Virus record (IMG/VR): IMGVR_UViG_2534681978_000009
Location: 1 to 10,696 of that record
Length of the DNA: 10,696 nt
From: a virus
Lineage: Duplodnaviria > Heunggongvirae > Uroviricota > Caudoviricetes
Direction: 5' to 3' (one strand)
In this document: positions 1,451 to 2,460 of the stretch, one piece after another
Position numbering within the stretch: the stretch's first letter is position 1
How the letters are laid out: every line of letters begins with the position of its first letter
Program-made: the position numbers and the translations under genes
The notes under the pieces: generated by a model
Databases searched by the model: none
What the model was told of the DNA's origin: nothing
Seen by the model: the letters and a program-made list of their open reading frames with translations, nothing else

Positions 1451-1737
1451 GACTTAATCTTCCCCTCCTTCAGCAATATCGCCTGCGTCCTGATCACGCC
1501 TTCCAGGTGGTAAAGTCTGGCGTCGTTGTTGTCGAGAATTCGGGTGCGTCGGTCGATCTCCGCGTGGCAGTCACTACAAGCCCATGCACCGATCAGGTCG
1601 TCAGGCTTCATTCCCGTTCCGCAAATTCCAGCCATCCGGTAATGTGCCAGAACTGTCGTTTCAGGATTGCCATTGCATACGCCGTAAATCCGTACCTGGC
1701 ATTCTCTACCGCGCGCTTCTTTGCGTAGGTTAGCCAT
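1447..1737 (-). CDS. ybcO: YbcO-like protein (DUF1364, Cys/His-rich putative nuclease)
   Basis: 96 aa, RKEARGRECQVRIYGVCNGNPETTVLAHYR...CSDCHAEIDRR resembles DLP12 YbcO. ATG at 1737-1735 overlaps the stop of the upstream antirepressor by 1 nt. Confidence 0.8.
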   Translation of the reverse strand: MANLRKEARGRECQVRIYGVCNGNPETTVLAHYRMAGICGTGMKPDDLIGAWACSDCHAEIDRRTRILDNNDARLYHLEGVIRTQAILLKEGKIKS

Positions 1738-2460
1738 TAAGCAGCCTCCCCTGTTACTTTCAGCATTCCGTTATCGAGCGGCTTTCTGGTCAGCCACTGT
1801 TGACCACGCCCGGTGATTTTTGTGGTGAACGAGATCTGTATTCCGTGATTTGTATTGACCGCTGTTTCTTTCACTGTGAAATAGCCGCGATCCATATATT
1901 CCTGCATTGGCACATTGCGCCGGGAACCTGAAGCAATAAGGATTTTGTGATCGCGCATCCACGCAAACAGTTTGTTTGGACCAATACCAACAACCTTTGC
2001 AAAGTTTCCAATCAAAATTCCGCTGGCCTCGCCAACTCGATCGGCAAACTCAACTTTAGGTGCTGCGAGAGCAAGCTGTTTCTCCAGTTCAGCCTTCTGG
2101 TCTTCAAGGTCGGCCGCAAGGCGCAATGCCTCAGAAAAGGTTTGTGGTATTTTCGGCGGTTGCCCCTTCGAGTTCTCGCCAGCGGTCAACAAGGCGAGCG
2201 GTGAATTCCGGCGACAACTGAGCGACGACAATAATGCTGTCTCGCTTACCTTGTTCGCCTTCGAATATATACACGCTTGTGAATTTGTTAGGGCTAATTG
2301 TTTGTTTATTTTCAACTTTTTGCATTGAAGGAAGTTGAATCACCCCACGCTTTGCCAGACGTTCTATTGATATTCTGACATTACCGTGTTGGCTTCCCAC
2401 CAACTCAGCGATTTCAATGCTTGTCATTTTGATGGCATTGCTATTTATCAGCTCATTCAT
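1737..2460 (-). pseudogene. Rha/Roi-family antirepressor (Rha N-domain plus KilA-C/ANT C-domain), disrupted by a frameshift near 2131-2160
   Basis: N-terminal ORF 2131-2460 (109 aa, [22 protein letters not shown]...FTARLVDRWRELE) stops at 2131. The C-terminal domain (...FSEALRLAADLEDQKAELEKQL...FAKVVGIGPNKLFAWMRDHKIL...QEYMDRGYFTVKE...) continues in the +1 frame to 1737. The two halves together equal one typical ~240-aa antirepressor. Could be a real mutation or a sequencing indel. Confidence 0.6.

What the first reader, a model, noticed from the sequence alone, without database searches (positions are those of the whole stretch)
1737..2460. Antirepressor (Rha N-domain plus KilA-C domain) split by a +1 frameshift
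The N-terminal Rha-like ORF ends at 2131 (...RLVDRWRELEGATAENTTNLF*), while the KilA-C/ANT-like C-terminal domain continues in the adjacent frame (...PQTFSEALRLAADLEDQKAELEKQL...). The switch maps to about 2131-2160, where there are short homopolymer runs (AAACC/TTTT). This is either a genuinely inactivated antirepressor (prophage decay or selection against antirepression) or a sequencing indel.
Basis: seen in the sequence. Interest (0 to 1): 0.4.

Follow-up and report, generated by a model that had tools for sequence, protein, structure and literature searches.

The report
Roi gene split by sequencing indel
A well-known lambdoid-phage regulatory gene (roi, a Rha-like/KilAC "antirepressor") looks broken by one extra base, but the base is unique to a 2011 low-coverage Ion Torrent draft assembly, so it is most likely a sequencing error and not biology.

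Summary
On the minus strand, 2460..1737 is a 724-nt gene. Its N-terminal ORF (2131-2460) and its KilAC-domain C-terminal part (1737-2153) lie in frames offset by +1. Alignment to intact 723-nt homologues puts the cause at one extra base at 2155/2156 (plus strand TTTTCGGCGG; relatives have TTTTCGCGG). The intact gene is the orthologue of phage HK022 roi: 82% identical over the full length, in the same NinB-NinE-NinF-roi-YbcO-RusA-NinH-Q order.

The insertion was found nowhere else. It is in 0 of 486 complete E. coli genomes that hold this segment, and in none of three contig collections. The truncated product is absent from about 15 billion proteins, whereas the product with that base removed is present exactly, on 82 contigs. 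Two independent E. coli drafts match window 508/558-2464 base for base apart from this one base.

The window is the whole contig AFPS01000255.1 of E. coli O104:H4 01-09591 (HUSEC041). That assembly used an Ion Torrent PGM at 22x coverage, and its authors hand-corrected homopolymer indels in 51 of 1,144 core genes. The contig also carries a second private 1-bp deletion (about 6416) and an N at 2611.

Verdict: most likely a consensus indel error (about 0.8). A genuine, very recent pseudogene remains possible (about 0.15). Interest is low.

The parts
1737..2460 (-). roi-like gene (Rha-like N-domain plus KilAC/ANT C-domain). It is 724 nt here and 723 nt (240 aa) in all relatives.
   Evidence: a single 723-nt CDS in more than 950 E. 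coli genomes and more than 200 phage records; the repaired product is 82% identical over its full length to HK022 Roi.
2131..2460 (-). N-terminal ORF of 109 aa: authentic residues 1-102, then 7 out-of-frame residues (ENTTNLF), then a TGA at 2131-2133.
   Evidence: Phage_pRha scores 29.8 bits (cut-off 29.9). phrog_63 'anti-repressor Ant' E=6e-26 and phrog_4936 'transcriptional regulator' E=6e-25.
2155..2156 (.). The lesion: GG on the plus strand where every relative has a single G (TTTTCGGCGG against TTTTCGCGG). This is a one-base insertion.
   Evidence: Alignments A1 and A2 and blastn. Absent from 486/486 E. coli genomes that hold the segment and from three contig collections.
1737..2153 (-). 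C-terminal coding part in the +1 frame (authentic residues 103-240 plus stop), holding the KilAC/ANT domain. This frame is open upstream as far as 2315.
   Evidence: (PF03374, 111.5 bits).
2453..2629 (-). NinF, the upstream neighbour. Its stop overlaps the roi start (ATGAATGA). The deposited record has an N at 2611.
   Evidence: PF05810, 47.3 bits. HK022 has the same order.
1447..1737 (-). YbcO/DUF1364, the downstream neighbour. Its start overlaps the roi stop.
   Evidence: PF07102, 147.9 bits.

Best explanation
The strain most likely carries an intact roi gene. This is a lambdoid nin-region gene for a two-domain protein: an N-terminal Rha-like winged-helix DNA-binding domain and a C-terminal KilAC/ANT domain. 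It is the orthologue of phage HK022 Roi and of the 'Roi' of Stx phages. The apparent +1 frameshift is a consensus base-calling error, a 1-mer G called as a 2-mer at 2155/2156, in a low-coverage Ion Torrent PGM draft assembly (contig AFPS01000255.1 of E. coli O104:H4 01-09591/HUSEC041).

Shown here: the position and nature of the indel; that it occurs in no other sequence searched; that the flanks are otherwise base-identical to intact alleles; and the sequencing platform and its documented indel errors.

Inferred: that the extra base is absent from the real DNA. No reads were available.

From own knowledge of Clerget & Boccard 1996 (not held in the paper library): HK022 Roi binds DNA and affects lytic growth in IHF mutants. 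Any antirepressor activity of this gene is by homology only.
For: 1. Exactly one extra base compared with all intact homologues.
2. The lesion was found nowhere else. It is in 0 of 486 complete E. coli genomes holding the local 81-mer and has 0 exact matches in genome contigs, viral contigs and metagenome contigs. The 109-aa truncated product is absent from the gene-position index and from the 15-billion-protein collection.
3. Removing the one base gives a 240-aa protein that exists exactly in the collection, on 82 contigs.
4. Independent drafts GCA_016857585.1 and GCA_012320585.1 match window 508-2464 and 558-2464 at every base except this one. That is 0 substitutions and 1 indel over about 1.9 kb.
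5. The source is contig AFPS01000255.1, 10,696 nt, which is the whole window. AFPS00000000 is strain 01-09591, sequenced on Ion Torrent PGM 314 chips at 22x coverage, assembled by reference guidance plus MIRA plus CAP3 into 456 contigs. The authors corrected homopolymer indels by hand in 51 of 1,144 core genes (PMC3140518). A second paper attributes the long branch of 01-09591 to homopolymer errors (PMC3320906).
6. The same 10.7-kb contig has a second private 1-bp deletion (CCC->CC at about 6416), absent from all 237 genomes holding that segment, which breaks another conserved ORF. It also has an ambiguous base at 2611. Over the 8.2 kb that matches NCCP15648 there are only 2 substitutions.
Against: No reads or quality values could be inspected, so this is inference. 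The site is a 1-mer read as a 2-mer, not a long homopolymer, although Ion Torrent over-calls also happen at short runs. Two indels in 10.7 kb is denser than the core-gene rate implied by the authors' figure (roughly 51 in 1.1 Mb over two assemblies). Prophage genes are dispensable in a lysogen, so a real recent frameshift would be tolerated.
Confidence: 0.8

Rival explanations
1. A genuine, very recent 1-bp insertion has inactivated roi in this HUSEC041 prophage. This would be early prophage decay or relaxed selection in the lysogen. It would leave a 109-aa DNA-binding-domain fragment and an untranslated, or only weakly re-initiated, KilAC domain.
For: The extra base is in the deposited sequence. 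Prophage lytic-cycle genes are not under selection during lysogeny (established knowledge). A second frameshift in the same prophage could also be read as decay. There are no other disabling changes, which fits a recent event.
Against: Relative to the closest relatives there are 0 substitutions and 1 indel in the left 1.9 kb, and about 1-2 substitutions and 1 indel in the right 8.2 kb. Spontaneous indels are roughly tenfold rarer than substitutions in E. coli (own knowledge of mutation-accumulation studies), so an indel share this high is unexpected for real mutations. It is typical of Ion Torrent errors. Neither lesion is seen in any other assembly. The platform has documented indel errors.
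Confidence: 0.15
2. An assembly artefact other than a simple base-call error: the consensus was built from reads of two or three co-resident paralogous roi copies, or from a CAP3 contig merge, and an indel was introduced at the join.
For: The window is a mosaic. Positions 2458-10696 are about 100% identical to one NCCP15648 prophage. Positions 427-2169 are nearly identical to a second NCCP15648 prophage. Positions 2170-2460 match the Stx-phage roi allele. The indel lies in the 245-nt interval where these alleles are identical. The record has an N at 2611, at another module junction. MIRA plus CAP3 merges were used.
Against: The same allele combination exists intact in independent assemblies (L014 and L016; SMN152SH1 at 99.6%). 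The NinF-roi-YbcO order is that of HK022 and of many complete genomes. No chimera is therefore needed to explain the contig.
Confidence: 0.04
3. A functional arrangement: either a programmed +1 ribosomal frameshift or two separately expressed domain proteins.
For: The +1 frame is open from 2315 to 1737, so any +1 slip before the TGA would give a full-length product. An in-frame TTG lies 5 nt after the TGA, preceded by GAGG (read directly from the sequence).
Against: A programmed shift or a conserved split would be shared by relatives, but all of them have one continuous frame. No prfB-like CUU-UGA-C slippery site is present. The flanking RNA folds no better than shuffled sequence (z = -0.12). 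There is no Rfam match.
Confidence: 0.01

Closest known systems
Roi of coliphage HK022 (AUM59832.1, 241 aa)
   Same: 82% identity over the full length (199/242, E = 2e-147). The gene order is identical: NinB-NinE-NinF-roi-YbcO(DUF1364)-RusA-NinH-Q. The two-domain layout is the same.
   Different: The N-domain is more diverged around residues 45-65 and in the linker. The window copy has one extra base at codon 102/103. The function of HK022 Roi (DNA binding; effect on lytic growth in IHF mutants) is recalled from Clerget & Boccard 1996, which could not be read here.
Roi of Stx-converting phages (phi24B, Min27, 933W-type; annotated 'phage antirepressor KilAC domain-containing protein' or 'DNA-binding protein')
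   Same: 99.0% nucleotide identity over the whole gene. The N-terminal 304 nt are identical. PMC3430580 names this gene Roi and describes it as conserved in context across Stx phages.
   Different: In Stx phages it follows an Ant (ORF6N/P22_AR_C) gene and precedes NinG. Here it follows NinF and precedes YbcO-RusA. Their copies are intact.
Pfam ANT/KilAC (PF03374) and Phage_pRha (PF09669) domain families; P1 Ant1/KilA and P22 Ant as classical antirepressors
   Same: The C-domain is a clear PF03374 member (111-114 bits). The N-domain resembles Rha (27-30 bits).
   Different: The Rha score is just below the gathering threshold. P22-type Ant (ORF6N/P22_AR_C) is a different protein, encoded by a separate neighbouring gene in relatives. 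Repressor binding has not been shown for Roi-type proteins.

Membership tests
Pfam ANT / KilAC domain (PF03374) | HMM match above the gathering score (25.3 bits) | tested here: met
   111.5 bits for window 1737-2315. 114 bits for the intact homologue.
Pfam Phage_pRha (PF09669) | HMM match above the gathering score (29.9 bits) | tested here: inconclusive
   29.8 bits for the 109-aa ORF and 27.2 bits for the intact 240-aa protein. The match covers nearly the whole profile (1-90 of 91) but is just under the cut-off. The source's precomputed hit is marked 'weak'. NCBI names some partial copies 'Rha family transcriptional regulator'.
Roi (phage HK022) orthologue group | Full-length sequence similarity to HK022 Roi | tested here: met
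   82% identity over 240/241 aa, E = 2e-147, using the product with the one base removed.
Roi (phage HK022) orthologue group | Conserved position in the nin region, between NinF and YbcO/RusA | tested here: met
   Same gene order in HK022 and in the window.
Roi (phage HK022) orthologue group | Sequence-specific DNA binding and an IHF-dependent effect on lytic growth | not testable with these tools
   Needs experiments. The primary paper is not held.
Phage antirepressors (functional class) | Binds and inactivates the prophage CI-type repressor | not testable with these tools
   The label rests on annotation only (phrog_63 'anti-repressor Ant'; RefSeq names).
Programmed +1 ribosomal frameshift genes (prfB type) | The frameshift is conserved among homologues | tested here: not met
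   All relatives have one continuous 723-nt frame.
Programmed +1 ribosomal frameshift genes (prfB type) | A slippery site or stimulatory element at the shift | tested here: not met
   No CUU-UGA-C-type site in the sequence. RNA fold z = -0.12. No Rfam match.
Genuine pseudogene (real lesion in the organism's DNA) | The lesion is supported by reads or by an independent assembly of the same strain | not testable with these tools
   No reads are available. No second assembly of 01-09591 was found in the collections: no full-length near-identical hit, and one contig only.

The most novel reading that the evidence does not exclude
The extra base is real. HUSEC041's prophage would then carry a freshly inactivated roi that still expresses a free-standing 109-aa Rha-like DNA-binding domain, and perhaps a re-initiated KilAC domain from the TTG 5 nt after the stop. 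This would alter the lytic-lysogenic behaviour of this prophage in a historical O104:H4 HUS strain.
Probability: 0.12. Interest if true: 0.15.

Novelty: not a real feature. Interest (0 to 1): 0.05.

Why it matters
It matters little biologically. The gene is a common, already named lambdoid nin-region gene (roi). The frameshift is most likely an Ion Torrent consensus error in a 2011 outbreak-era draft genome. The practical lesson is that frameshifts in this assembly (AFPS01) should not be read as pseudogenes without read support. If the lesion were real, it would be one more strain-private prophage pseudogene of limited interest.

Tried and rejected
1. Programmed frameshift or conserved split gene. 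Rejected because no relative shares the split, there is no stimulatory RNA structure and there is no Rfam hit.

2. Further private damage in the gene. The Leu226->Pro change (window 1780) looked like a possible sign of decay, but it is shared by at least 9 complete genomes in which the gene is annotated as intact, and the exact repaired protein sits on 82 contigs. It is a normal polymorphism.

3. The same lesion elsewhere. Exact 48-mer scans of genome contigs, viral contigs and metagenome contigs found nothing. Look-ups of the 109-aa and 98-aa truncated products found nothing.

4. NinF look-ups to find sister contigs (58, 70 and 56 aa) failed. The later explanation is the N at 2611 in the deposited record.

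5. Chimeric contig as the cause. Considered because of the three-way mosaic. The same allele and the same gene order exist in independent assemblies and in HK022, so a chimera is not needed.

6. Solved-structure homologues by sequence: none. NCBIfam: no hit. The HK022 Roi primary paper is not held.

Full report
**Observation.** On the minus strand there is a 109-aa ORF at 2131-2460, ending ...RWRELEGATAENTTNLF*. There is also a second open frame, 1737-2315, whose distal part reads ...KIPQTFSEALRLAADLEDQKAELEKQL.... In Pfam, the second ORF matches ANT/KilAC (PF03374) at 111.5 bits against a cut-off of 25.3. The first matches Phage_pRha (PF09669) at 29.8 bits against a cut-off of 29.9. PHROGs places both halves colinearly on phrog_63, 'anti-repressor Ant'. 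The C-terminal frame is +1 relative to the N-terminal frame, because 724 = 3 x 241 + 1.

**Where the lesion is.** Megablast of 1737-2460 found the segment in 989 complete E. coli records and 219 phage records. The listed top hits all span 723 nt, not 724, and are annotated as one CDS, usually 'phage antirepressor KilAC domain-containing protein'. Alignment with three of them (A1) has a single gap. On the gene strand the relatives read ACCGCGAAAAT and the window reads ACCGCCGAAAAT. The extra base is therefore at gene position 305/306, which is window 2155/2156 on the plus strand (TTTTCGGCGG against TTTTCGCGG). It sits at codon 102/103 of 240, in the linker between the two domains. Residues 1-102 are authentic and are followed by seven out-of-frame residues and a TGA at 2131-2133. 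Residues 103-240 are encoded by 1737-2153.

**What the gene is.** All neighbours are on the minus strand and were checked in Pfam:
- NinB (2799-3209)
- NinE (2626-2802)
- NinF (2453-2629)
- the split gene (1737-2460)
- YbcO/DUF1364 (1447-1737)
- RusA (1088-1450)
- NinH (894-1091)
- Q (467-901)

Further along lie a DnaB-type helicase, a replication O protein, cII and cro, with a LexA-like cI repressor on the plus strand. This is the early and nin region of a lambdoid prophage. Phage HK022 has exactly the same order around its roi gene. HK022 Roi (241 aa) is 82% identical over its full length to the window's product once the extra base is removed (E = 2e-147). A comparative paper on Stx phages calls the same gene Roi and notes its conserved context (PMC3430580). 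The gene is therefore a roi orthologue. 'Antirepressor' is a name given by homology. From memory of Clerget & Boccard 1996, which the library does not hold, Roi is a DNA-binding protein that affects HK022 lytic growth in IHF mutants.

**Is the lesion shared?** No.
- An 81-nt query centred on the insertion matched 486 complete E. coli genomes. None matched at 99% or better, which means none has the extra base.
- An exact 48-mer across the lesion is absent from the GTDB species-representative genomes, from IMG/VR and from the JGI metagenome contigs.
- The 109-aa truncated product is absent from the gene-position index and from the 15-billion-protein collection.
- The 240-aa product obtained by deleting the one base is present exactly, on 82 contigs (P0001).
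- In two independent E. coli drafts that carry P0001 (GCA_016857585.1 and GCA_012320585.1), window 508-2464 and 558-2464 respectively match at every nucleotide except the extra G. That is no substitution and one indel in about 1.9 kb.
- The Leu226Pro difference from the SMN152SH1 copy is an ordinary polymorphism, shared by nine complete genomes with intact genes.

**Where the window comes from.** Window 2458-10696 is essentially identical to a prophage of E. coli NCCP15648. Across the two aligned pieces (a 417-bp NinX-containing stretch of NCCP15648 between them is absent from the window) there are two substitutions and one single-base deletion at about 6416 (TATATCCTCC against TATATCCCTCC). 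That deletion is also private: it is in 0 of the 237 genomes that hold the segment. It splits a conserved 90-aa hypothetical gene (6313-6584) into a 75-aa product. Looking up that 75-aa product found exactly one contig: AFPS01000255.1 of GCA_000221065.2, which is 10,696 nt long and so is the whole window. In that record's gene calls nothing is called between NinF and YbcO.

According to the paper that deposited it, AFPS00000000 is E. coli O104:H4 strain 01-09591 (HUSEC041). It was sequenced on seven Ion Torrent PGM 314 chips to 22x coverage. It was assembled by reference guidance plus MIRA de novo plus CAP3 merging, into 456 contigs. The authors state that homopolymer indels had to be corrected by hand in 51 of 1,144 core genes (PMC3140518). 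A later phylogenomic paper attributes the elongated branch of 01-09591 to homopolymer sequencing errors (PMC3320906). Another excluded this assembly from synteny work because of its fragmentation (PMC3551546). The deposited contig also has an ambiguous base at 2611, shown as A in the window. It sits at the NinE/NinF junction, where NCCP15648 carries an extra NinX gene. That N explains why my NinF look-ups failed.

**Interpretation.** Relative to its nearest relatives, this 10.7-kb contig shows about as many single-base indels (two) as substitutions (one or two, leaving aside module junctions). Both indels are found in no other sequence searched, both change the length of a short base run, and both break ORFs that are intact everywhere else. 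Spontaneous indels in E. coli are roughly an order of magnitude rarer than substitutions (own knowledge of mutation-accumulation studies). For early Ion Torrent data, indels are the dominant consensus error, and they are documented for this very assembly. I therefore put about 0.8 on a base-calling or consensus error, plus about 0.04 on a related assembly artefact from paralogous roi copies or a contig merge. I put about 0.15 on a genuine, very recent insertion, and about 0.01 on any functional reading.

- The assembly-artefact idea arises because the window is a mosaic of segments that match two NCCP15648 prophages and the Stx-phage roi allele. However, the same allele and the same gene order occur in independent assemblies, in many complete genomes and in HK022, so a chimera is not required.
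- Programmed frameshifting is excluded. No relative shares the shift, there is no recognisable slippery site, the local RNA folds no better than shuffled sequence (z = -0.12) and there is no Rfam match.

**What remains uncertain.** I could not see reads or quality values. The site is a 1-mer to 2-mer change, not a long homopolymer. Two errors in 10.7 kb is denser than the authors' core-gene figure implies, although de novo prophage regions with paralogous copies should do worse than reference-guided core genes. Re-mapping the reads, or Sanger sequencing across 2100-2200 and 6380-6450, would settle the question.

**Novelty and interest.** The gene is well known and common. Its split is most likely not a feature of the organism. 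Interest is 0.05. The only useful outcome is a caution: frameshifts in AFPS01 contigs need read support before they are called pseudogenes.

Noticed in passing
window 6313-6584 (- strand), lesion at about 6416: A second private single-base indel. The window reads TATATCCTCC where NCCP15648 and all 237 complete E. coli genomes holding the segment read TATATCCCTCC. It splits a conserved 90-aa hypothetical gene between cII and the replication O gene (WP_001244623.1 in NCCP15648) into a 75-aa product. It is probably another Ion Torrent under-call.
   Followed up: yes
window 2611: The deposited contig (AFPS01000255.1) has an N here, while the window shows A. The position is at the NinE/NinF junction, where the otherwise identical NCCP15648 prophage carries an additional 417-bp NinX gene. 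This suggests an uncertain consensus or a join at that point.
   Followed up: partly
whole window 1-10696: The window is an entire contig and a lambdoid mosaic. Positions 2458-10696 are about 100% identical to one prophage of E. coli NCCP15648. Positions 427-2169 differ by 3 substitutions plus the indel at 2155/2156 from a second NCCP15648 prophage. Positions 2170-2460 carry the Stx-phage roi N-domain allele. No complete E. coli genome holds the whole combination.
   Followed up: partly
window 399-406: The window has A6 then CC where three relatives (L005, L014, L015) have A7 then CCC. These are two adjacent run-length differences in the more divergent non-coding stretch downstream of Q. They could be further homopolymer under-calls or real allele differences.
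   Followed up: no
window 8444-8749 (+ strand): A 101-aa ORF downstream of cI in the PL direction has an arginine-rich N-terminus (DNARNRRRARRQAQRE), which recalls N-type antiterminators. It has no Pfam hit and is annotated as hypothetical in NCCP15648.
   Followed up: no
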